Assembly: GCF_028641065.1 (NCBI RefSeq)
Contig: NC_073395.1
Coordinates: 3,410,001 to 3,474,000 of the forward strand
Reading direction: 5' to 3'
Source of the DNA: Leucoraja erinacea
Taxonomy: Eukaryota
DNA length: 64,000 bases
Notes under the pieces: model-generated
The model's input: the letters and a program-made list of their open reading frames with translations, nothing else
The model's database searches: none
Told to the model about the DNA's origin: nothing
Shown: positions 8,001 through 44,591 of the stretch, piece by piece
Numbering within the stretch: the first letter of the stretch is position 1
How the letters are laid out: each line of letters starts with the position of its first letter
Program-made: the position numbers and the translations under genes

Positions 8001-11000
8001 GGGCGCTGTCTGCACGGAGTTTGTACATTCTCCCCCCGTGACCTGCGTGGGTTTTCTCCGAGATCTTCGGTTTCCTTCCACACTCCAAAGACGTACAGGT
8101 TTATAGGCTAATTGGCTGGGTATAAATTGTCCCTAGTGTGAGCAGGATAGGGTTAATGTACGAGGTGCGGACTCGATGGGCCAAAGGGCCTGTTCCCGCG
8201 CTGCATGTCTCAACCTATGGCATTTGGACAGGTACACGGATAGGATCCTCCTAGCATCCTCCTCACAGCTAACACTGCCCCCCAGCCTGTCAACCCTGCC
8301 AAGGTGGATAATCACACATTACACTCCTGCTGAGTTTTTGCCCACTCTTTCTGTATTCTCTGCACGAACATGCACTCCTATCTGTCTCTGCATTGCCAGC
8401 AAACTTGGCAGGTGGGACCTGTGTAACATTGAACCTTGGTGATAATTTGCTAGCTCTCTGAATTCATGCATACGTTCTCCAGCTCCTTTTCAACAGCAAC
8501 AGCCTTTGGTCCATCTCCAATTAAACTTATGGGTCCGTCCCACTTGGGCGATGTTTTGGGCGACTGCCGGCGGATACGAGAATGGAATTCACCGAAGTCA
8601 GCACCAGCGGCAACCTACGACAACACCTGCGTCAGGCTACGCTGATTGGCGTCAAATCCACAGTCGCCACTTTCGCAGAAATATTTTCAACATGTTGAGA
8701 ATCCAGCGGCGATCAGAAAGACGCTACAACTCTTTGGGCGACTGAGGAGACGACTCACGACCGTACAGGGGACACAGACTAGTCGCCTAAAAAATCACGT
8801 AAGTGGGACAAGCCCACAAGTCTTTTTTTTTCTTCTCTGTCCACCCTGCCAAGGTGGATAACCACACATTACACTCCTGCTGAGATTTTGCCCACTCTTT
8901 CTGTATTCTCTGCACAAACATGCACTCCTATCTGTCTCTGCATTGAAACATAGAAACATAGAAATTAGGTGCAGGAGTAGAGGCCATTCGGCCCTTCGAG
9001 CCTGCACCGCCATTCAATATGATCATGGCTGATCATCCAACTCAGTATCCCGTACCTGCCTTCTTTCCATACCCCCTGATCCCCTTAGCCACAAGGGCTA
9101 CATCTAACTCCCTCTTAAATATAGCCAATGAACTGGCCTCGACTACCCTCTGCGGCAGAGAGTTCCAGAGATTCACCACTCTCTGTGTGAAAAAAGTTCT
9201 TCTCATCTCGGTTTTAAAGGATTTCCCCCTTATCCTTAAGCTGTGACCCCTTGTCCTGGAATTCCCTAACATTGGGAACAATCTTCCTGCATCTAGCCTG
9301 TCCAACCCCTTAAGAATTTTGTAAGTTTCTATAAGATCCTCCCTCAATCTCCTAAATTCTAGAGAGTATAAACCAAGTCTATCCAGTCTTTCTTCATAAG
9401 ACAATCCTGACATCCCAGGAATCAGTCTGGTGAACCGTCTCTGCACTCCCTCTCTGGCAATAATGTCCTTCCTCAGATTTGGAGCCAAAACTGTACGCAA
9501 TACTCCAGGTGTGGTCTAAACCAAGACCCTGTACAACTGCAGTAGAACCTCCCTGCTACTATACTCAAATCCTTTTGCAATGAAAGCTAACATACCATTC
9601 GCTTTCTTTACTGCCTGCTGCACCTGCATGCCTACCTTCAATGACTGGTGTACCATGACACCCAGGTCTCGCTGCATCTCCCCCTTTCCCAATCGGCCAC
9701 CATTTAGATAATAGTCTGCTTTCCCGTTTTTGCCACCAAAATGGATAACCTCACATTTATCCCACATTATACTGCATCTGCCAAACATTTGCCCACTCAC
9801 CCAGCCTATCCAAGTCACCTTGCAGTCTCCTAGCATCCTCCTCACAGCTAACACTGCCCCCCAGCCTGTCAACCCTGCCAAGGTGGATAACCACACATTG
9901 CACTCCTGCTGAGTTTTTGCCCACTCTTTCTGTATTCTCTGCACGAACATGCACTCCTATCTGTCTCTGCATTGCCAGCAAACTTGGCTGCTGTACGCAT
10001 GGTGCATGACATTATGATTTGGAATGTTCTCCATGTCCCTGATTCACACAGGAAATATTATCTTTCCAACATGCACTAATTATTACATAGAGTGCACGCA
10101 AGTTCTTTATAGCTTTAAGCAGAGAGGGGGAAGACTTTAAAGGAGATGTGTGGGGCAAGTTTTTTTTGTTTTTTTTTTACACAGAGGGTGGTGGGTGCCT
10201 GGAACACACAGCCAGGGGTGGTGGTGGAGGCATATATGATAGTGGTATTTAAGAGGCTTTTAGATAGGCACATGGATATGCAGGGAATGGAGGGATATGG
10301 AACACGTGCAGGCAGGGAAGATTAATTTAACTTGGCATCATGTTCGCATGGACATTGTGGGCCGAACGGCCTGTTCCTGTGCTGTTCAATAGACCCAAAA
10401 TGCTGGAGTAACTCAGCGGGACGGGCAGCATCTCTGGAGAGAAGGAACAGGGTGATGACTCTTCAGTCTGAAGAAGAGTCTCGTCCCGAAACGTCACCCG
10501 TTCCTTCTCTCCAAAGATGCTGCCCGTCCCGCTGAGTTACTCCAGCATTTTGTGTCTACTTTTGATTTTTTTTTCCAGCATCTGCAGTTCTTTCCTATCA
10601 CAAGGCTACAAAGGAGATTAGTATCCATGGAGTTGGGAGAAAAAAATGTATCAAACATTAATGCTCTCTGGCACTTGGAATATTGATGATGACAATATTA
10701 TTGGAATTCTGCACTCAATTTCAACTATGGTTCCACAGTAGTCTGTGGACAGGCCCTTTACGCAGCTGCAAGTAAGAATTTCACTGTTCCGTTTCAGTAC
10801 ATACGACAATCAAACAATCTTGTCTCAGAGTTGCACATTACGTAAACCAACTCATTAAAAAATCTGTATCCGTGCGAAGAAAATATTACGCTAATGTTAC
10901 ACTGGGGGAAATAATAGCCCGTTAAAAACAGAAAATGCTGGAAACACTCGGAGGGTCAGGCAGCAGAGGTGATTGTGCAGCTGAAAGGCACTTCATTGGA

Positions 11001-14000
11001 CCGCTGGTCTGCTGAACGCATCGTGCATCTTTTGTTTTTTACTTTAGATTCCCAGCCTCTGCAACTTGTTTGATTTTCAACGAAGGGGCCATTGTTTTGG
11101 TTGTAGAACACAGAACAGTACAGCACAGAAACAGGCCCTTCGGCCCACAATGTCTGTGCCGAACATGATGTCAAGACCAACTCTTCCTTCTTCTTGGTTG
11201 GCGGCGCGACTCACCCGTTGCAGCGGCCCCTACAGCCTGTCTGTCTTTTTTTTATTTTTTGTCTAGTTAAATGTAGTGTTTGGTGTTTTTTAATAGTATT
11301 TTTAAATGTGTAAATGTGGGGGGAGGGGGAAACTGTTTAAATCTCTTCCCTGTCCGGGAGACCCGACTTTTTCCCTGTCGGGTCTCGGCTGTCGTTGGGG
11401 CCTAGCACCGTGGAGCGGCCTCCAGCCTGAACGAGCCGGGGGCTCGGGAGACTGCGGAGCTGCGGAGCTGCGGACTCACCATCGTCGGGGGTGGCCGGCC
11501 TCGGAGCGTGGGGAGCGGCGGTGACTCGCTGCTGCGACTCGACTCCTGGGGCTCGGAGGCTCCAGCAACGCAGCCGCAGGTCCGGTGGACTGTGACATCG
11601 GGAGCTCGCGGGTCTGGGAGGAGAGAGAGAGACCGCTTCCCGGAGCTCCCACAACGCGACTTCTCCAGCCGGTGTCACGGGGTTGGAACAACCCGGACCG
11701 GGACAGTATATCACCCGGCACGGCTTCATGGCCGTGGGACTCACCATCGCCCGTGGGGGTTCCAACCTTGGACTTTTCAGACCGGGAGCGGGGCCGTAAA
11801 TCGCCCCGCGCGGCCTAAAATGGCCGTGGGACTCATCATCGCCCGCCTGGGGCTTGGACATCGGGAGAGACACGGAGAACAGGGGAGAGAAAAGACTTGC
11901 CTTCCATCACAGTGGCTTCACTGTGATGGATGTTTGTGTGAATTTAATTATGTGTATGTCTGTAAGACAGTGTCTTTGTTTGTATGGCTGTGGAAACAAC
12001 ATTTCGTTTGAGTCTCACTGGGGCTCAAATGATAATAAATTTGTATTGTATTGTATTGTATTGTATCTGCCCGCACGTGATCCATATCCCTCCATTCCCT
12101 TGTTCCTATCTAAACGTCCCTTAAATGCCACTATCATATCAGCCTCCACCACCACCCCTGGCAGTGCATTCTAGGCACCCACCACCCTGTGTAAAAAAAA
12201 AAACATACCCCGCACATCTCCTTTAAACTTTGCCCCCTCACCTTAAATCTGTGCCATCTAGGCTTTGACATTTGACAGCCAGAGAAAAGGTTCTGAGTGT
12301 CTACTCTGTCCATGCCTCTCATATTTTTTTAATCAACTAATGTACAATAGGTTATAGATCATCTCGCGACTTACCGGGAAGCATATGATCAACAGGTCTG
12401 TGTGCTGGAAAAGATAACATAATTGAATTTAGATAACATCATCGCAGTTCGGATTTCAAAAGCAAATTGGGTCATTGTGAAAGTTGCAGTGAAAAGTCTG
12501 AAGTCAGACTGAAGAAGGGTCTCGGCCCGAAACGTCACCCATTCCTTCTCTCCAGAGATGCTGCCTGTCCCGCTGAGCTACTCCAGCATTTTGTATCTAC
12601 CTTCGATTTAAACCAGCATCTGCAGTTCTTTCCTACACGAGGCTACAAATGAGATTCGTATCCATGGAGTTGGGAGAAAAAATGTATCAAGCATTAATGC
12701 TCTCCGGCACCTACACTTGGAATATCGATGATGACAACGCTGACCTTTATTGGAATTCTGCATTCTATTCCGACTGTGATTCTACAGTGGTCTGTGTACA
12801 GACCTGTTAAGGGTCTGTCCCACCAGCATGTGACTGCATGCAGCAAGCGCGACCAAACCGGAAGCGGGGGCCGCGCGGAGGTCGAGTGAGTGGCGTGAAG
12901 TTCGAGTGAAGTCCGTGGGGAGTTCGCGCGTGACGTACGGCGTCAAGACGCTGCGTCTGGTGTCGAGACGCTGTGTATGCCCGTTGAGGCGGTGCGTACA
13001 GCGTTGAGGCGGCTGCGGGCCGGCAGGCTTTGACATTTGACAGCCAGGGAAAAGGTTCTGAGTGTCTACTCTGTCCATGCCTCTCATATTTTTTTTTATC
13101 AACTAATGTACGATAGGTTATAGATCATCTTGTGACTTACCGGGAAGCATAAGATCAACAGGTCTGTGTGCTGGAAAAGATAACATAATTGAATTTAGAT
13201 AACATCATCGCAGTTCGGAGATGGTGCCAAAAGCAAATTGGGTCATTGTGAGAGTTGCAGTGAAGTCAGGCTGAAGAAGGGTCTCGGCCCGAAACGTCAC
13301 CCATTCCTTCTCTCCAGAGATGCTGCCTGTCCCGCTGAGCTACTCCAGCATTTTGCGTCTATCTTCAATGTAAACCAGCTCTGTAGATCCTTCCTGCACA
13401 ATTTGGTTACCTGTTGTGTTCCTCCAGTTTAAGGGACCGCATATCCAATTATTGTTTCGCTAAATTAAAGTCTCCTTAACTCAAACTAAAGCTGCATCTG
13501 TGAAGCCCGATGACTGACTTATGAGTGGATCTTCCAAGACTATAGAAACATAGAAAATAGGTGCAAGGAGGCCATTCGGCCCTTCGTGCCAGCACCGCCA
13601 TTCATTTGGATCATGGCTGATCGTCCCCAATCAATAACCCGAGCCCGACTTCTCCCCATATCCCTTGACTTCACTAGCCCCTCGAGTTCTACCTAACTCT
13701 CTCTTACATCCATCCAGTGACTTGGCCTCCACTGCCCTCTGTGGCAGGGAATTCCACAAATTCACAACTGAAAAAGTTTTTTCTCACCTCAGTTTTAAAT
13801 GGCCTCCCCTTTATTCTAAGACTGTGGCCCCTGGTTCTGGACTCGCCCAATATATATATTCATTGGAGTCCAATAAAACGTAGAACATAGAACAGTACAG
13901 AATGGCCACATCTGTGCCGACCATGACGACACGTTAAACTGATCACCTCTGCCTGCTAGTGACCCGTATCCCTCCATTTCCTGCACATCCATGTGCCCAT

Positions 14001-20406: not shown

Positions 20407-23400
20407 CTGTGGGGTGGGAAACATTATTAGTCATTGGAAGGTCTTCACCCAAATTCAAATTACAATTTTGCAAGCACCAGCAGGTTAATTTTAAACAACA
20501 AACTCAAGCAACAATGCACATAAAGTGCTGGGACAGGCAACATAGGTGAAATTTCAGGTTGGGACAAAATGCTGGAGGAACCCAGCGGGACAGACAGCAT
20601 CTCTGGTTAGGAGGGTGACCTTTCAGGTCGGGACCCTTCTTCAGATTGACTGGAGTAGGTGAAGGGAGAAAGCTGGAAGAGAGCACTGGGGCCTGTCCCA
20701 ATGTACGAGCTAATTCAAGAGCTCTCCCTAGTTTAAAACAAAATCAAACTCATGGTAAGCACCTAGAATGTACGTAGCGGGTACGTCGGAGCTTGGGACG
20801 ACTCTTAGCGGCTCGTAACGCTAACGGCAGCTACCTGGGAAACGCGGTAAGCTCGGGAAGACTCGTGAAGATTTTTCAACATGTTGAAAAATGTCCACGA
20901 GAGCCCCGAGTACCTACGAGCGGCTATTACCGTAATTCTCAGAGTTCGAATCAGGAGAAACTCGGGAGAACTCTTGAAGTAGCTCGTACAGTGGGACAAC
21001 CCCATTAGGGTGGGACAAAGCCCGGTGAGTGATGGGTGGATACAGGTGACGGGGCTGATTGGCGGATGGTTGGACAAAGGCCACAGATGGAATGGCAATA
21101 GATGCGAGGTCGGGAGATGAGGAGATGTGGAATGTGAAGGTGGAATATGGGTGAAATGGGTGCACATCCAGGTGGGGCACAGGGAAGAGAGGTGGGGGGT
21201 GAGAGGGAGGATAGGGGGGTTGTGTTTGTAGGTTCGTTATCTAAAATTGGAAGATTCAACCCTCATACCGTTGCTATATGCGGTGCTGTTCCTCCAGTTT
21301 GCATGTGGCTTCACTCTGGCAATGGATGAGGCCCAGGACAGAAAGGCCAGTGTGGCAATGGGAAGGGCGAGTTAAAATGGTGAGCAACGGGGAGAACCAG
21401 CAGACCTTGGCGGACCCAGCGCGAGTATTCAGCGAAATGGTCACCTCGTTTAAGTTGCCAGTGGATGTTATGTTGGCATCTTATGTTAACATCACCGTCA
21501 CAGAATGGTTACAGGAATGAAGGCGGTTATTCAATCCTTACTGGCTCTCCGGAAGAGCCATCCAACTAGTCCCATTCTCCTCTCTCACCACCGCTCTGAA
21601 AATCCTTCTATTTCACATTCAAATGTTACAATTGAATCTACTGCAACTCCCCACCCTGACAGCTCATTGCACACCACGCCTGTTTACTATGTAACAGAAA
21701 CACATGATAAAGTGGATTACATGTCTTTTGTATAGCTGTGCTAAATCTTGTGTTGTTATGACCTCTGCATGCGTCCCCTCCTTGACTCTGGCTCATTTCC
21801 CCCGAGCCAGGTCCAGCACTGCCGCCTCTCCTCAGTAAATGAAAAGTAAAAGAAAAAAACAACTGATGTTTTAAATCTGAAAAACAAGTGCTGGAAACAG
21901 TCAGCAAGGAAGTGATGCCAAGCAGTTAACATTCCAGGCCTCTGTTCATCTTCTCTCCACGCTCCCCAGGCTGCTGAATGGTTACAACATTTCCATTTTG
22001 GTGCCATCTTCCTTGTCGGGCCAGAAACACATCTGTCAGTGACAGACTCCACATATGCTTTGTGGGATCTGTGGAATTCTTTGGAGAAGGCTCTCATCCC
22101 GAAAGGTCACCCATTCCTTCTCTCGAGAGATGCTGCCTGTCCCGCTGAGTTACTCCAGCCTTTTGTGTCTATCTGTGGAATTGTTAGCCACATCTACATC
22201 TGAATAATTGGAGCTTCCCCATTCTTACTACTCCATGGCCTTTGCCTCTGAAATCCTCCCCCAGCAAGTTTACCCCTCAACATCTTTCCCACTAGTTGGC
22301 AGGGTATAGAACAACCAATAGTGTATTTGTTCCTCTTTAGTTTCTTACTCCGAAACAAATACATTCTGTGCTTGGAGACAAGGAAATTGTGAGCAAATCA
22401 CAAGGTGCTGGAGTAACTCTGCGGGTCAGGCAGCATCTTTGGAGGACATAGATCACAGTGAATAACTCAGTTTCACAGAGTGCTGGAATAACTCAGCGGG
22501 TCAGGCAGCATCTGTGGAGAACATGGATAGGTGACGTTTCACAGAGAGCTGGAGAAACTCTGCGGGTCAGGCAGCATCTGTGGAGAACATGGATAGGTGA
22601 CCTTTCACAGAGTGCTGGAGTAACTCAGTGGGTCAGGCAGCATCTGTGGAGAACATGGATAGGTGACCTTTCACAGAGTGCTGGAGTAACTCAGCGGGAT
22701 CAGGCAGCATCTGTGCAGAACATAGATCGGTGATGTTTCACAGAGTGATGGAGGAACTCAGCGGGTCAGGCAGCATCTGTGGAGGACATGTTTCGGGTCG
22801 GGAGTATTTTAAGACTGATTGTAGCACGGGGAAGGAAGAAAGCTGGAAAAGGGATAGGGGGGGCATAGCTTGGATAGGTGAATATAGGTGAGGAGGGTAG
22901 ACAAAAGTGCTGGAGAAACTCAGCGGGTGCAGCAGCATCTATGGAGCAAAGGAAATAGGCAACGTTTCGGACCGAAACCCTTCTTCAGAGGAGGGTTCTA
23001 GGCGAGGAGGGCTTGGATTGGTAGATGGGTGGACAAGGCTGGAGATGAAAAGGAGACAAAAGGGCATCAGATAGAAGGAGAAGAGAGAAATGTAAAGCTA
23101 GATGGAGGAATGTAGATGGAAGGGGGTGGGGAAGAGGGGCAGGATAGTGTTGGAGGGGAGGGGACATAGCTTACAACTCAACGGTATGACTGTTGAATTC
23201 TCCAATTTTAAGTAACAGCCCCCTTCCCCCTCCCTTTCTCTTGTACTCCCTTGAATTGAGGTCATTGTTATTGCCAGAGCACTGCAGTACCATATGATTA
23301 ATTGCACCTGCAGGTTTTCCCAGCCTGGTTTAATGGGCTTTTCTGTTCAATACATGTACCACTAGCTTATCTGAGACCTTGCAACGGACTGTTCCAGCTG

Positions 23401-26400
23401 CTACGGTCAGGCAAGAGCCTCCGCTGTCACGCTGTGAAAACAGAGAGGATGACACGGAGTTTCTTCCCACAGGCAATCAGGACTGTGAACTCTTTTATCA
23501 CCAGGGACTAATCTACTGTTGTGTTGTGTCTTTTTTTTTTTAATTCTAATATGTAGATACTGATTCTGTTCTATTCATTTCTGTTGTTTTTGCACAATCC
23601 ACAGGCATTGCCATTTTCATTTCACTGCACATCTGGTATGTGTATGTGACAAATTACGTTGACTTGACTTGCACTTTCACTCTCCAGAAACATTACATTT
23701 CTTCTGAAAGTAGACAAAAAATGTTGGAGAAACTCATGAAGGACATCCGTCACCTACTCCTTCTCTCCATTGATGCTGCCTCACCCACTGAGTTTCTCCA
23801 GCATTTTTTGTCTACTTTCGATTTTTCCAGCATCTGAAGTTCCTTCTTCAACATTACTTCTTCTGACGTTAGTTATCTTTACCAATCATTTTTTTAAAAC
23901 AACTTTTGTAATCTTTTAAAAGATTCTCCTACATAGGCACGCTGGTCTCTACGGACGAGGTGGGGCGTAAGGCCAGTCTATGAAGGGATATTCCACATTC
24001 AGATCATTAACGTAAACTCTCTCTCGTCACTTGCAATCGTTGGATGGGAGTTTGAGCCTTGGTACTTACGATCATTGTCGTGAACAATCTGAAAGTTCTT
24101 GACAGATGCCTGCGTGACTCTCCCGTGGAAATTCAGCACGTAGGACTGAGTATCATCGTTCCAAACCGGCACCTTGTTATGCAGCTCGATTAGGTTTTCC
24201 ATATTCCTGTTCTGCCACATTAACAGTAAACTTTCATGTTCCTGGGGGGGGTCATGAAAGCAGATGTAACACTTACAGCCTCTCTTGAATTTAGAAAAGA
24301 CAAAGCAAAACGTGAAGAGTATTTTTAAACTTATTATTGTGTTGGTTTTCCTTACAATTAGGTCAAATTTAATGGGAACCAAGTTGAACGTTAAAATATG
24401 TTGTTATTCCATCTCTATTGGACATGCTATTTGATTGATATTTTGTTTTAAATGCGGCCGTCAGAACTATTTAGAACTATTGTTTAGTTTCGAGATACAG
24501 GGCGGAAACAGCCCTTTGGCCCACCGAGTCCGTGCCGACCAGCGATCCCCGCACACTTACACTATCCTACACACAATCGGGACAATTTACAGAAGCCAAT
24601 TAGTTTACAAACCTGTTTGCCTTTGGAGTGAGAGAGAGAGAGAGAGAGAGAGAAAACCAAAGAAAACCGACGCAGGTCATGGGGAGAAGGTACAAACTCC
24701 ATACAGTCAGGATTGTAACCGGGTCTCTGGCGCTGTAAGGCAGCGACTCTACCGCTGCGCCACCGTACCGCACAGAGCTCATTTAAAAAAACATTTAAAA
24801 AAACATTTGAACAGGTTTATTTTTCCATCCAGCATCGCTGATAGCCCATGCGCCCACAACTCGCAAAAGCCACATATTACGAACACATGCACCCTGCTAA
24901 ATTTAAAGACCTATTAATTTTGAAGACCTCTCTCATTTCCTACTGACTTACATTACGAGGTTTGATCGGGACTCGCTCATGATTCATGCTCATCCCTGGA
25001 ATGACAACCGTCATTTTCCGTGGGCCTTTAAACCCAAGGACATTGGTCTCCTGGAGAGACATAAATACCAGTTGGCACAGTCATAAATTATAACAATATT
25101 ATTGCACATAAATACCAAGTTCACATCACGGACACAGCACCTGTCAAATACAAGGTCAGCAAACTTGGTACCTTCATTCCCAGATTGGTTAGTTAATGTG
25201 TTTAAGAAGGAACTGCAGATGCTGGAAAATTGAAGGTATACAAAAAAGCTGGAGAAACTCAGCGGGTGCAGCAGCATCTATGAAGCGAAGGAAATAGGCA
25301 ACGTTTCGGGACGAAACCCTTCCGGGTTTCGGCCCGAAACGTTGCCTATTTCCTTCAGGGTTTCGGCCCGAAACGTTGCCTATTTCCTTCAGGGTTTTCG
25401 GCCCGAAACGTTGCCTATTTCCTTCGCTCCATAGATGCTGCTGCACCGGCTGAGTTTCTCCAGCATTTTTGTGCACCTTTGGTTAGTTAATGAGTTGGCC
25501 AGTGTCCACACTGGGGTAGAATGGGAATTTTTTGCTACTACTTGCCCCCATTGCAATGGCTCTTGCAAACTCCAAGCATCTGAGTATTTAAAATCTTGCA
25601 CAAAAATAATTCTATTCATTTAAAACAAAACTTTTAAAAAAAAGAGCCAAAAGCTAGCATGTCTGGCATGTGTATCATAGAAACATAGAAACATAGAAAT
25701 TAGGTGCAGGAGTAGGCCATTCAGCCCTTCGAGCCTGCACCGCCATTCAATATGATCATGGCTGATCATCCAACTCAGCATCCCGTACCTGCCTTCTCTC
25801 CATACCCCCCGATCCCCTTAGCCACAAGGGCCACATCTAACTCCGTCCTAAATATAGCCAATGAACTGTGGCCTCAACTACCCTCTGTGGCAGAGAGTTC
25901 CAGAGATCCATGGCGTGGCGTGGCATGGCGTATCGTGGCGTGGCAGGGATCATTTAAAGTGCAGTTCATATTTACCAAAACAAATTCTAAGGAATTGCTC
26001 GTCCAAGCTGTACAAGATCTACAGGATTCTTAAATACATTTATCATTACATAGGTCAGTTGTAACAGGCGGACTGAGTATCTAGAAGGCCAGCCAAAGTA
26101 ATCTTGCCATATTGTATACTGGTAAAATACCGTGTACTCACATAACAAATCGCAGCTAATTCTTGCCTGGTATTGGCTTCGTCAAGTAATCCAACTGCCT
26201 TAGCTGGATTGACGCCATTATCATAGATTGTAAACTTGGTTCCCATTAAATTTGACCTAATTGTAAAGAAAACCACACACTAATTAGCATCAATCGCAAC
26301 ACGTATTCTCTGAATCCCAAATGACTCTTCAGTACACTCCCACTTACTCAGCAGAACCTCAAAGACACATTTGATTTTAAGAGTGCGATTCATTTTTGAT

Positions 26401-29400
26401 AAACAGTGCGTTGTCCTGTTGTCATTACAGTCTGTAGTGCAGACTCTCATCCTCAGGCAATAATGGTACACAAAATGCTGGAGTAACTCAGCTGGGCAGG
26501 CAGCATCTCTGGAGAGGAATGGGTGACATTTCGGGTCGAGACCCTTCTTCAGGCAATAATGTTTAGTTTTACCTACTGCATCTACTAATAGCAAACACAG
26601 ATAATAGTCAAGGTTCCACCACCGGGTGGCACCAGCAATGGCTGCCTCGCCAATAGTCTGTCTGTCCCTTCCTTCATTGTTGTTTTAATAGTATGTGTTA
26701 AATGTATGCTTTTAGTGTTCTTTAGCTTGTTTTATGTGGGGGGTGTGATGGAGTGGGGGTGGGGGTTGAGGGAAACCTTTTTAATCTCTTACCTCGACGG
26801 AGATGTGCCTTTTTTCCATATCGTATCTCCGTCCACACTGCAGCCTAACATCAAGGAGTTGGGGGTCTTTGCTCCATAAATGGATGGATTTGGGAGCACC
26901 AACCGCGGGAAACCTGCGGGACTGAACATCGCAGAGCTCGCCATCCCTTTACCAGTGAACGACCTCTGTGCTCCAACCACGGGGGCCGGCGGGCTTTAAC
27001 ATCGTGGAGCTCGTGGTCTCTGGTCAGAGACCGACTTCGGGAGTTCCAAGCCGCAAGAGCTTCGATCGCCACGACGCGGGGGCTTCCATCGCCCCAAATG
27101 CAGATGGTTCAACTACCCCGCAACCGTGGGAGAATAAAGAGGAAAAAGATTGGACTTTATTGCCTTCCATCACAGTGAGGAATGTGGGGAATCCGCTGTG
27201 GTGGATGTTTATGTTAACTTTTATGTAGTTGTGTCTTGTTGCTTTTTCTTTAGTATGGCTGTATGTTAGTTTGCATGTCACTGTACCTTAATTGGCACAC
27301 GTGACAATAAAAGACCTTTGAAACCTTTGAGGTTCAGGAAGAGAACCACTTCTAGATCGAGTCCAGGAGAATGAGAACATTACAGCACGGGACCATTCTA
27401 ATTGTTTGCAAGAATAATCCATTTCTCGGCATGTTTCCCACAGGAATAATTTATTTTTGATTCCAATTCCTTTTAGCATGTCACCATTGAAACAGTTTCA
27501 ACCACCCTTTTAGGCAACGAATTCCAGATCATAAACTCTGGCAACGGGATTTTTTTTTTGTCACCTTTAGTTCATTTGCCATTCACCTTTAAGCCCAGTC
27601 CTCAGATTATCAATCCTTATATCAATGAAAACAGTTTCACTTTGTCTGAATTTTGAACGCTTCTTGCAACTCACATTGTAAATGTTTCTATTCTGAGGAA
27701 ACTGTTCAAGCCTTTGCAGTCCATCCATTTAGCCAACGCCTCTTATCCCTAGAACAATTGCAGTACATCTTTCTGTGGACACTCCAAGGTTACGGCACCC
27801 TAGACCTGTTTGGGTGTATATGTACTACACTGATATTTGTAACACATGGGATGTCTAATGAAGAAAGACCAGTTAGGCAATTAGCAAATTAAATAGAGGG
27901 ACTTAACTGAAAGATCCAAGATCCTGAGTGATTTTAACAAGGTGGATGTAGCAAGGACATTTATTCTTGTGGAAGAATCTAAATCTTGGGGTCACTGTTT
28001 GAAAATAAGCATTTGCTTATTTAAGACAGAGATGAAATAATTTATTTTGGCAAAAAGTTGGTGGTCTGTGGAATTCTCATTTGCAGTGAGGGGAGTGAAA
28101 GTAGTGGCTCTAAATATCTGGTCACTCAGCATGGAAACAGACCCTTCGGCCCAAATTGTCCATGCCAACCAAGATGCCCCAACTAAGCTGGCCAGCGCCT
28201 AGTCTAAACCTGAAACGTCACCTATCCATTCCCTCCACAGAAGGTGCATGGCCCTTCTTGCACTTTGGCTTTAGCTCAATATCATATGTACTGAACTATA
28301 TAAATATATAGTACATACCACCAACTCATCCAAATGCACCTACCTTAATTTCCCTATGTAGCTCTCAGCTTCCCGCGATAAGTCGGTTGCATCAACCGAT
28401 ATTAAATAATTGGACGTTTTGCTTTTTTTTCTTTTTCTTCCAGCTAATAAAAACACCTGTGAAAAAAAAAGCATATTTAGAACTGTGTGCTTATCATAGT
28501 CAATCTCCTCACTTTAACTGGCTTCAGTTTCCAGCAAAATAATCATTTTCCTCTTTCAAGAGGATTGGGTTATTTGATCAAATGGTGACTCAGTGCTGCA
28601 AGATGCAGCCTTACATACTAATGGCATAGAGTCTCAGATGTTTCCAACACAGTCACATCCCTTCACATCCTGGGTAGCTGGGAGAGTTCACAAGTCTGTC
28701 AGATGCAGAATGAAGCTTTCTCTCTCTCTATACACTGCCAGATGACAGCATTAAGCATCTGTGACAGCGCGCAAATACTGGGCTGAAAACATACTCATCT
28801 ACAACAGCATATTGCAGCACAGAAACAGGCCCCTCTGCCCGTGCCGAACAAAATGTTTCATCTACACGAGTCCCACCTGCCTGCGTTTGGCCCATATCCC
28901 TCTAAACCTGTTTATCCATGTATACCTATACAAGTGTCTTTTATATGTTACATAACTGCCTCAACTACCTCCTCTGGCAGCACGTTCCTTATACCCATTT
29001 TGTATTTGATTTATCCTAATTGCTACCTTCCCAAACACATGCAAAGCAATATGCCTGCCATGTAAAGTCCAATTCATAATGAATTTGATTGTTCCATCTA
29101 GGACATATGACAATAAAACATTCTTGACTTGGATGCAGACTCTGCATCCAAGAGTCAAGAGTGTTTTATTCAAGGCTTATCCCTTTTAACTTGCACCTTA
29201 AACTTAGTTCTATTGGCAACACAATTGAACCTTGCACCAAGATGCCATGTTTGTAGATAATGTGTGGACAGATTACAGTGTTAACTTCTCTCTATGTAGA
29301 AAGGGAACCAGCCAGTCACAGCGGGACTAGTGGAACTGATTGAAAGATGCTGTGAAGACTGTTGGAGCTGCTGGATAATCACTGTGTGTTTTGCTTCCAG

Positions 29401-44400: not shown

Positions 44401-44591
44401 GGAGGACTAAGAAACCAAGAACTAAGATAGTAAAATACTCGGTGATATTATATTATTAGCCCAAGGGAGCCGGACCCCACAGATAGTGATATATTGGGAG
44501 AGTCAGCCCATTGCCCAGCAAGTAGCCCCGCTCTCGCCGCACAGTTGCCCCCTCGGCCGCCCTCTCCCTACCTCACGCTGTAGTAGGACAT
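20273..44591 (-). CDS. TULP3: Tubby-related protein 3, whole gene span. Join 44591-44572, 38607-38556, 36499-36337, 33398-33270, 31683-31522, 30295-30177, 29606-29412, 28456-28344, 26256-26142, 25050-24952, 24241-24070, 20406-20273; 490 aa (447 aa without the 129-nt exon)
   Basis: Complete tubby domain ([83 protein letters not shown]) and N-terminal IFT-A-binding helix ([21 protein letters not shown]). All junctions are GT-AG and in phase. Adjacency to RHNO1 and FOXM1 favours TULP3 over TUB. Confidence 0.93.
20688..21004. mobile_element. MITE with GGGGCCTGTCCCA / TGGGACAACCCC TIRs in the last TULP3 intron
   Basis: gtcccaatgtacgagctaattcaagag ... ctcttgaagtagctcgtacagtgggac. Confidence 0.75.
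22398..22800. repeat. Minisatellite of 66-bp units (about 6 copies) derived from the Penelope-type terminal repeat
   Basis: tttcacagagtgctggagtaactcagcgggtcaggcagcatctgtggagaacatggataggtgac recurs at 22471, 22537, 22603, 22669, 22736. Confidence 0.9.
24070..24241 (-). CDS. TULP3: TULP3 exon 10 ([23 protein letters not shown]...FQIVHDND)
   Basis: ccccccag| acceptor, ATC|gtaagt donor, 172 nt. Confidence 0.95.
24952..25050 (-). CDS. TULP3: TULP3 exon 9 ([33 protein letters not shown])
   Basis: gtctctccag| acceptor, AAT|gtaagt donor, 99 nt. Confidence 0.95.
25199..25478. mobile_element. Penelope-type hairpin insertion with 14-bp TSD in TULP3 intron 8
   Basis: ttggttagttaatg at 25185-25198 and 25479-25492. 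Confidence 0.8.
26142..26256 (-). CDS. TULP3: TULP3 exon 8 ([14 protein letters not shown]...RQELAAICY)
   Basis: ttctttacaattag| acceptor, TAT|gtgagt donor, 115 nt. Confidence 0.95.
28344..28456 (-). CDS. TULP3: TULP3 exon 7 ([38 protein letters not shown])
   Basis: tttttcacag| acceptor, AAG|gtaggt donor, 113 nt. Confidence 0.95.
29412..29606 (-). CDS. TULP3: TULP3 exon 6 (start of tubby domain, ...[45 protein letters not shown])
   Basis: tttgcag| acceptor, AAG|gtgagg donor. Confidence 0.93.
30177..30295 (-). CDS. TULP3: TULP3 exon 5 ([13 protein letters not shown]...[12 protein letters not shown])
   Basis: cccatttag| acceptor, AAG|gtgaga donor, ISxSxNFxE and RPxSA motifs of TUB/TULP3. Confidence 0.9.
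31522..31683 (-). CDS. TULP3: TULP3 exon 4 ([13 protein letters not shown]...IQEIMEQR)
   Basis: cccctgcag| acceptor, GAG|gtaggg donor, conserved IDGP motif. Confidence 0.9.
33270..33398 (-). CDS. TULP3: TULP3 putative extra cassette exon ([43 protein letters not shown])
   Basis: 129 nt, phase 1-1, open, purine-rich, tttttgcttttatttaaattag| acceptor and CAG|gttagc donor. Confidence 0.7.
36337..36499 (-). CDS. TULP3: TULP3 exon 3 ([28 protein letters not shown]...RILD)
   Basis: ttctctctag| acceptor; the ATG|gttggt donor gives the required phase 1. Confidence 0.88.
38556..38607 (-). CDS. TULP3: TULP3 exon 2 ([18 protein letters not shown])
   Basis: ttttttcccccag| acceptor, CAG|gtataa donor, 52 nt. 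Confidence 0.92.
40725..41770 (+). mobile_element. Rex1/Babar-type LINE reverse-transcriptase fragment (frameshifted)
   Basis: [32 protein letters not shown] and [14 protein letters not shown] motifs; related 3' ends at about 15850-16200, 23375-23670, 34610-35060, 47470-47700. Confidence 0.85.

What the first reader, a model, noticed from the sequence alone, without database searches (positions are those of the whole stretch)
24343..26275. 43-nt antisense copy of the TULP3 exon-8 acceptor in intron 9: candidate RNA-duplex splicing switch
Seen: plus-strand 24343-24385 (tggttttccttacaattaggtcaaatttaatgggaaccaagtt) is the reverse complement of 26233-26275 at 42/43 positions. The 26233-26275 segment is the polypyrimidine tract, the AG and the first 24 coding nt of exon 8. 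It is not a transposon sequence. In the minus-strand pre-mRNA the single mismatch becomes a G-U wobble, so a continuous 43-bp helix can form. It would bury the 3' splice site and loop out exons 8 and 9, and it ends about 100 nt before the exon-10 acceptor. Established: long-range intronic complementarity can drive exon skipping and acts as editing-complementary sequence for ADAR. Inference: skipping exon 8 (115 nt) or exons 8+9 (214 nt) frameshifts the tubby domain, giving NMD-coupled control of TULP3 dose. A-to-I editing could instead destroy the acceptor AG or recode SNLMGTK next to the phosphoinositide-binding KLR motif. A neutral recent template-switch copy is the alternative explanation.
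Basis: partly seen in the sequence, partly recalled or inferred. Interest (0 to 1): 0.85.

Follow-up and report, generated by a model that had tools for sequence, protein, structure and literature searches.

The report
Backwards splice-acceptor copy in skate TULP3
An intron of the skate cilia-transport gene TULP3 holds a backwards 55-base copy of an upstream splice signal, shared by four related species; it is predicted to pair with that signal in the RNA but is most likely a tolerated DNA-copying scar rather than a working splicing switch.

Summary
Only these two copies exist in the genome. The gene is skate TULP3. The helix is predicted at near-full occupancy at equilibrium (-67 to -77 kcal/mol), and skipping exon 8 or exons 8+9 would give NMD-type stops. 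The copy sits at the same intron-9 position in three other species labels, so it is not an assembly error or a private mutation. Function is not supported. Flanks differ by only 1-3%, so the unchanged core is compatible with drift (P 0.03-0.4 by comparison). No compensatory change was seen. One RNA contig and 13 of 13 clustered proteins include the exon unrecoded. Three paralogues lack such a copy. Four other unique local inverted duplications in 1.46 Mb imply roughly 25-500 such acceptor copies per genome by accident. Best reading: an old templated inverted duplication, tolerated, with at most minor skipping or editing (0.65). A selected splicing or editing switch stays open (about 0.2). The scan has noted similar intronic antisense junction copies on other DNA (GSK3B, SEL1L3, TEX261, TRPgamma).

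The parts
24343..24385 (-). Antisense arm, 43-nt core, in intron 9; 566 nt after the exon-9 donor and 101 nt before exon 10
   Evidence: present in organisms C, D and E
24330..24342 (-). Decayed 13-nt extension of the antisense arm (2 substitutions and 1 gap against the source)
   Evidence: one further inserted T in organism C
26233..26275 (-). Source arm: pyrimidine tract, acceptor AG (26258-26257, in a UAG triplet) and first 24 nt of exon 8
26276..26287 (-). Source extension with candidate branch point CTAAT (A at -28)
   Evidence: branch-point role inferred from a recalled consensus
28344..28456 (-). TULP3 exon 7 (113 nt), ends within the Arg codon of KLR
26142..26256 (-). TULP3 exon 8 (115 nt), aligns to human TULP3 residues 271-308
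24952..25050 (-). TULP3 exon 9 (99 nt), inside the predicted loop
24070..24241 (-). TULP3 exon 10 (172 nt)

Best explanation
The intron-9 element is an inverted copy of at least 55 bases of the exon-8 acceptor, shared by four related species labels, that likely arose once by template switching during DNA replication or break repair in a skate ancestor and is likely tolerated rather than used. The two arms are predicted to pair once both are transcribed. The antisense arm is made 1.85 kb after the acceptor, so U2AF and U2 would usually be bound first (inferred). The main mRNA therefore keeps exons 8 and 9 (shown for one contig), and any skipped, NMD-cleared or edited molecules would be a minor leak.
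For: The copy contains intron and exon sequence, so its template was DNA or pre-mRNA; it is unique in the genome and not a transposon. Same-kind events are common: of 9 inverted pairs in 1.464 Mb (at least 30 nt, at least 85% identity, spacer 50-5000 nt, no other copy in the sample), 1 is this element, 4 of the other 8 are two-copy local duplications genome-wide and 4 are transposon families. That is 2.7 per Mb (0.74-7.0), or roughly 25-500 acceptor copies per genome under assumed intron numbers. The arms show uncompensated decay: 4 differences between them, plus 2 more source changes in organism C, one breaking a pair and one leaving a wobble. The unchanged core is not significant against flanks (Fisher P 0.24-0.37). 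The RNA contig runs exon 7-8-9-10-11 with 0 other letters in the paired exon part. 13 of 13 cluster proteins carry SNLMGTKF and exons 9 and 10. 3 of 3 paralogues lack a copy. Germline inverted templated insertions are described in PMC8421209 (passages) and 10.1101/2021.11.26.470150 (abstract).
Against: The core is unchanged in both arms in C and E and apparently keeps 31 or more identical nt in D. Over an assumed total tree length of 4-8%, P(no change in 43 nt) is 0.18-0.03. The single core mismatch keeps a wobble pair. Equilibrium folding of the 2091-nt region gives 41 of 43 core pairs at probability 0.99 or more; so strong a mask on a needed acceptor might be expected to be purged if it were useless. 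No empty-site allele was seen, so the insertion event itself is inferred. The 1.85-kb distance is longer than the 100 bp searched in PMC8421209. Contigs drop rare forms, so the RNA result cannot exclude minor skipping.
Confidence: 0.65

Rival explanations
1. Selected RNA-structure switch for unproductive splicing. The helix competes with spliceosome assembly at the exon-8 acceptor and loops out exon 8 or exons 8+9. The frameshifted mRNA is destroyed by NMD, which tunes TULP3 dose according to elongation rate or tissue.
For: The helix buries the branch-point region, tract and AG. Stops fall 231 and 150 nt before the last junction. The core is intact in A, C and E. Precedent: RNA pairs that control unproductive splicing in BRD2/BRD3 (PMC10789245, abstract); paired splice sites are less used (PMC8052449, passages).
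Against: No covariation and no significant constraint. No skip product among 187 fetched proteins with the exon-7 end motif, in the 13-member skate cluster or in one RNA contig set; all of these are blind to rare NMD forms. PMC8052449 (passages) reports that conserved complementary regions avoid branch points and active splice sites, whereas this one covers both. Absent in 3 of 3 paralogues.
Confidence: 0.13
2. Selected editing-complementary sequence. The helix recruits ADAR, which edits the acceptor A at 26258 (AG read as GG, so the exon is skipped) or recodes Asn, Met, Thr or Lys codons next to the PI(4,5)P2-binding KLR motif.
For: The geometry (exon paired with a downstream intron element) matches known editing sites (recalled). 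The acceptor A is in a UAG triplet, the only one in the source arm (UAG preference recalled). 385 of 492 splice-site edits in human nascent RNA change the acceptor AG (PMC5991522, passages). Editing is strongly enriched in pairs below -30 kcal/mol (PMC8052449, passages).
Against: 0 other letters in the exon part of the RNA contig and 13 of 13 proteins unrecoded, so there is no majority recoding in those records. The core has no A-C mismatch or bulge of the kind that makes editing site-selective (recalled criterion). Low-level editing would also occur as a by-product of a neutral copy.
Confidence: 0.09
3. The pairing helps rather than blocks. It closes a loop or competes with the stronger repeat-derived helices in introns 7-10, and so affects splicing order or circular RNA output without skipping.
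For: High-copy inverted repeat pairs of -103 to -146 kcal/mol lie in introns 7, 8 and 10; three of the four pairs folded enclose exons 9-10 or 8-10.
Against: One arm covers the acceptor itself, which would hinder back-splicing to it (inference). There is no RNA evidence.
Confidence: 0.05
4. The inverted pair matters mainly at DNA level, as a substrate for inversion of the 1.85-kb segment between the arms, and organism D carries that inversion.
For: In run X10 one contig goes from intron 9 through the arm directly into the rest of exon 8 (record 1).
Against: A shared repeat of 31 nt or more makes a branching node in either orientation, so a contig can pass through only after two side branches are pruned. 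Both missing branches are short contigs in C and E (156-255 nt) that end at high-copy repeats, and E also shows one branch missing. The pruning is inferred from recalled assembler behaviour. A fixed inversion would break the tubby domain.
Confidence: 0.03
5. Assembly artefact of this genome.
For: None found.
Against: Run X1 holds 0.97 of the words but may be the source of this DNA. Independent runs of organisms C, D and E carry the arm joined to intron-9 flank.
Confidence: 0.01

Closest known systems
Templated inverted insertions and template-switch mutations (MMB-TI, PMC8421209, passages; short-range template switching, 10.1101/2021.11.26.470150, abstract)
   Same: Short inverted copy of nearby unique sequence, tens of bases long, heritable, not a transposon.
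   Different: The template is 1.85 kb away, not within 100 bp. The event is old and seen in four species labels, so junction microhomology cannot be read. The template happens to be a splice acceptor.
Pairs of conserved complementary regions (PMC8052449, passages) and BRD2/BRD3 unproductive-splicing structures (PMC10789245, abstract)
   Same: Long-range intramolecular pre-mRNA pairing near splice sites; NMD outcome if the exon is skipped.
   Different: Those are defined by conservation and, in tested cases, by mutagenesis. Here conservation above background and covariation were not found, and one arm covers an active acceptor and its branch-point region.
ADAR editing-complementary sequences and acceptor-AG editing (PMC5991522, passages; GRIA2 Q/R site recalled)
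   Same: An intronic arm pairs with exon and acceptor; the acceptor A lies in a UAG triplet.
   Different: No editing was seen in consensus-level data. The helix is near-perfect rather than shaped for one site, and deep conservation is untested.

Membership tests
Templated inverted duplication | Inverted copy of a nearby, otherwise unique template | tested here: met
Templated inverted duplication | Not a transposon or its terminal repeat | tested here: met
   2 places in the genome; no high-copy hits
Templated inverted duplication | Empty-site allele in an outgroup and junction microhomology | not testable with these tools
   3 of 3 relatives laid carry the copy; no ray or shark intron DNA was obtained
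Conserved complementary region pair (splicing switch) | Stable helix within one pre-mRNA | tested here: met
   predicted -66.8 and -77.4 kcal/mol; 54 pairs in the fold of 2091 nt
Conserved complementary region pair (splicing switch) | Arms more conserved than the surrounding intron | tested here: inconclusive
   0 core substitutions in C and E against 1-3% in flanks; P 0.24-0.37
Conserved complementary region pair (splicing switch) | Compensatory substitutions | tested here: not met
   none in C or E; changes in C's extension are one-sided; low power at this divergence
Conserved complementary region pair (splicing switch) | Splicing changes when the pairing is broken and returns on rescue | not testable with these tools
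   needs a minigene; the one RNA contig shows inclusion only
ADAR editing-complementary sequence | Intronic complement of exon or acceptor sequence | tested here: met
ADAR editing-complementary sequence | A-to-G differences between RNA and DNA in the duplex | tested here: inconclusive
   none at consensus level; raw reads were not available
TULP3 gene | Tubby domain and closest named proteins TULP3-like | tested here: met
   no tree was built and synteny was not checked
Known Rfam RNA family | Covariance-model match on either arm | tested here: not met
   7 matches in 23800-26500, all at 25286-25356 and below gathering score

The most novel reading that the evidence does not exclude
A chance inverted micro-duplication was captured in a skate ancestor as a built-in antisense strand against a constitutive TULP3 acceptor. 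It now sets TULP3 dose, and so ciliary receptor traffic and Hedgehog tone, by masking or A-to-I editing of the AG coupled to NMD: a skate-specific regulatory helix caught near its birth.
Probability: 0.2. Interest if true: 0.65.

Novelty: new member of a known kind. Interest (0 to 1): 0.27.

Why it matters
If neutral, it is a measurable natural control: a 43-bp perfect antisense strand 1.85 kb downstream that fails to block a constitutive acceptor shows how far co-transcriptional commitment outruns long-range pairing. It also warns that such inverted junction copies should be expected by the tens to hundreds per genome. If functional, it would show a single replication error creating a complete splicing or editing switch in a key cilia-trafficking gene. 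Four searches of the held library found no paper on such an element in TULP3 or on ADAR editing in Leucoraja; most subscription papers are not searched.

Tried and rejected
No RNA holder was listed on record (RNA labels are guesses); this is not evidence either way. No raw reads were available, so editing and rare junctions could not be measured. Intron 9 had no RNA contig cover, which says nothing about antisense transcription. Metagenome scan: 80 loci, 53 with an exon-8 equivalent, 0 of 53 with an inverted match at E 0.01 or better; none looks like a cartilaginous fish (best identity 79%), many have no intron there and many are short, so this is weak. The first background script missed the focal pair and was replaced by a seed-based one (display cut; stored rows used). 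Half of the 8 background candidates proved to be transposon ends and were dropped. One search had the exon-7 end misplaced by three bases; its skip translations were discarded and redone. P0121 (301 aa) looked like a truncated isoform but frameshifts in an A-run of exon 7, upstream of the duplex. The copied segment's own hairpin is not significant (z -0.44). A fifth, distant tubby-like hit on C8 was not examined. Look-ups of earlier findings by place and by sequence were blank. No paper supplements were read.

Full report
Observation. The two stretches match at 42 of 43 positions in reverse complement, and the mismatch is a U-G pair in the minus-strand RNA. With one gap the match is 52 of 56 columns, 24330-24385 against 26287-26233. 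The extra 13 columns include CTAAT, 28 nt before the exon, which fits the branch-point consensus (recalled). A genome search found only these two places. Neither arm has high-copy hits in a 1.46-Mb sample, whereas nearby intronic repeats have hundreds. Chance expectation is about 1e-13.

Gene. The closest named proteins are TULP3-like proteins of sharks and rays. The cluster of the closest protein, P0006, holds named proteins of Leucoraja, Amblyraja and Rhinoraja, so the animal is a skate. Eleven coding exons map by tblastn and a twelfth, short first coding exon lies at 44591. Introns 7, 8 and 9 are 2087, 1091 and 710 nt. Skipping exon 8 gives a stop 231 nt before the last junction; skipping exons 8+9 gives one 150 nt before it. 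Both fit the NMD rule (rule recalled). Skipping exon 9 alone stays in frame.

Predicted structure. The duplex is -66.8 kcal/mol for 43 bp and -77.4 with the extension. In a fold of 26330-24240, 54 pairs form and 41 of 43 core pairs have probability 0.99 or more. This is an equilibrium result: in the cell the acceptor is made 1.85 kb before its complement. The same pre-mRNA has stronger repeat-derived helices, -103 to -146 kcal/mol, so long duplexes are not rare in this gene; only this one was found to touch an exon among the exons tested.

Relatives. 20 of 24 listed runs hold the stretch or part of it, under five organism labels. I laid four runs on 23865-24460. In organism C the arm is joined to both intron-9 flanks. 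Its 34-nt identical core collapses to one double-depth contig (depth 100 against about 47-61), with 0 other letters, and the source side differs from the window's copy by one letter, presumably the known mismatch. C adds one T at the far edge of the copy and has two changes in the source extension, one breaking a pair and one leaving a wobble. Organism E also has the arm with both flanks; one and two unlisted differences near contig ends could not be placed. In organism D one contig runs from intron 9 through the arm into the rest of exon 8. That shows the arm is there, and is most simply an assembler path through a shared repeat, though an inversion is not excluded; one G-to-A difference in D was not displayed and could lie in the arm. 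Flanking intron differs by 8-9 of 350 nt in C and 2-5 of 180 nt in E, so 0.5-1.2 changes are expected in 43 nt and none is seen: P 0.3-0.6 each, pooled Fisher 0.24-0.37, and 0.18-0.03 over an assumed whole-tree length of 4-8%. This leans slightly toward constraint but is not significant, and no compensatory change appears.

RNA and protein. The one RNA-like run laid (a guess by the tool) gives a 3354-nt contig with exon 7 joined to exon 8, exactly 214 nt between the starts of exons 8 and 10, exon 11 beyond, and no other letter in the paired exon bases. All 13 members of the skate cluster read SNLMGTKF and contain exons 9 and 10. Of 187 fetched proteins with the exon-7 end motif, 5 continue differently: two are conservative variants and three run into other sequence; all are from bony fishes or unnamed, and none matches the predicted skip peptides. 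These sources drop rare and NMD-degraded forms, so they show that inclusion occurs, not that skipping is absent.

Controls. Three paralogues in the same genome have no inverted copy covering the equivalent acceptor within the 30 kb fetched for each. For the background rate I searched 1.464 Mb (five regions, not random, around this gene and tubby hits) for inverted pairs with no other copy in the sample. Nine events passed, one being this element. Genome searches on the other 8 gave 4 true two-copy local duplications (two of them include short repeat ends) and 4 transposon families. That is 2.7 per Mb (95% interval 0.74-7.0), about 6000 per genome. With assumed values of 150,000-250,000 acceptors, a 100-nt footprint and 35-45% low-copy DNA, 25-500 would copy an acceptor. 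The mere existence of the element therefore needs no function.

Mechanism. Shown: a unique inverted intron-exon copy, older than four species labels, with one-sided decay at its edge, and a normal spliced mRNA. Inferred: origin by a template switch or templated repair; pairing in nascent RNA; spliceosome commitment usually ahead of pairing; a small leak to skipping or editing cleared by NMD. I put this at 0.65. A selected masking switch (0.13) or editing element (0.09) remains possible, because the core is intact, the one core mismatch keeps pairing, and the acceptor A sits in a UAG triplet. Against that, PMC8052449 (passages) finds conserved pairs depleted at active splice sites and branch points, while PMC5991522 (passages) shows that acceptor AG editing does occur in human nascent RNA.

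Known kinds and novelty. It works like an editing-complementary or splice-masking arm in geometry only; the conservation and effect tests for those families were inconclusive, not met or not testable. It meets the testable features of templated inverted duplications (PMC8421209, passages; 10.1101/2021.11.26.470150, abstract). BRD2/BRD3 (PMC10789245, abstract) is the model for the functional rival. Searches found no paper on this element. Earlier notes of this scan report similar intronic antisense junction copies in other genomes; I did not check them and do not count them as support. Verdict: real, new member of a known kind, interest 0.27.

Noticed in passing
   Followed up: yes
window 26468-26551 with 22082-22168; 25393-25472 with 22901-22980; 25199-25292 with 23758-23853: High-copy inverted repeat pairs enclosing exons 8-10 or 9-10 (-131 to -146 kcal/mol), a geometry that can favour circular RNA or multi-exon skipping.
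   Followed up: partly
window 25286-25356: Palindromic hairpin at the end of a 34-bp tandem array inside repeat DNA of intron 8; miRNA-precursor models match on both strands below gathering score.
   Followed up: partly
window 24385, run X10 (organism D): Contig passes from intron 9 through the arm into the rest of exon 8: assembler path through the repeat, or an inversion between the arms.
   Followed up: partly
window 23865-24035: Organisms D and E stop matching about 35 nt into intron 10 and continue with other sequence, while C matches the window: an indel shared by A and C or by D and E.
   Followed up: no
window 26237-26275: The copied core begins and nearly ends at the two sides of a weak local hairpin that holds the acceptor; not significant against shuffles (z -0.44).
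   Followed up: yes
protein P0122: An annotated shark TULP3 isoform leaves the normal sequence inside exon 9 and ends in another frame of exon 10; unrelated to this duplex as far as seen.
   Followed up: no
L023:1463-1536 and 2443-2557; L088:1440-1563; L101:9170-9290: Four further two-copy local inverted duplications in this genome; overlap with genes not checked.
   Followed up: partly
window 8248-9988 and 10575-13352: Low-copy local direct duplications, for example 162 nt at 98.8% and 337 nt at 92.6%.
   Followed up: no
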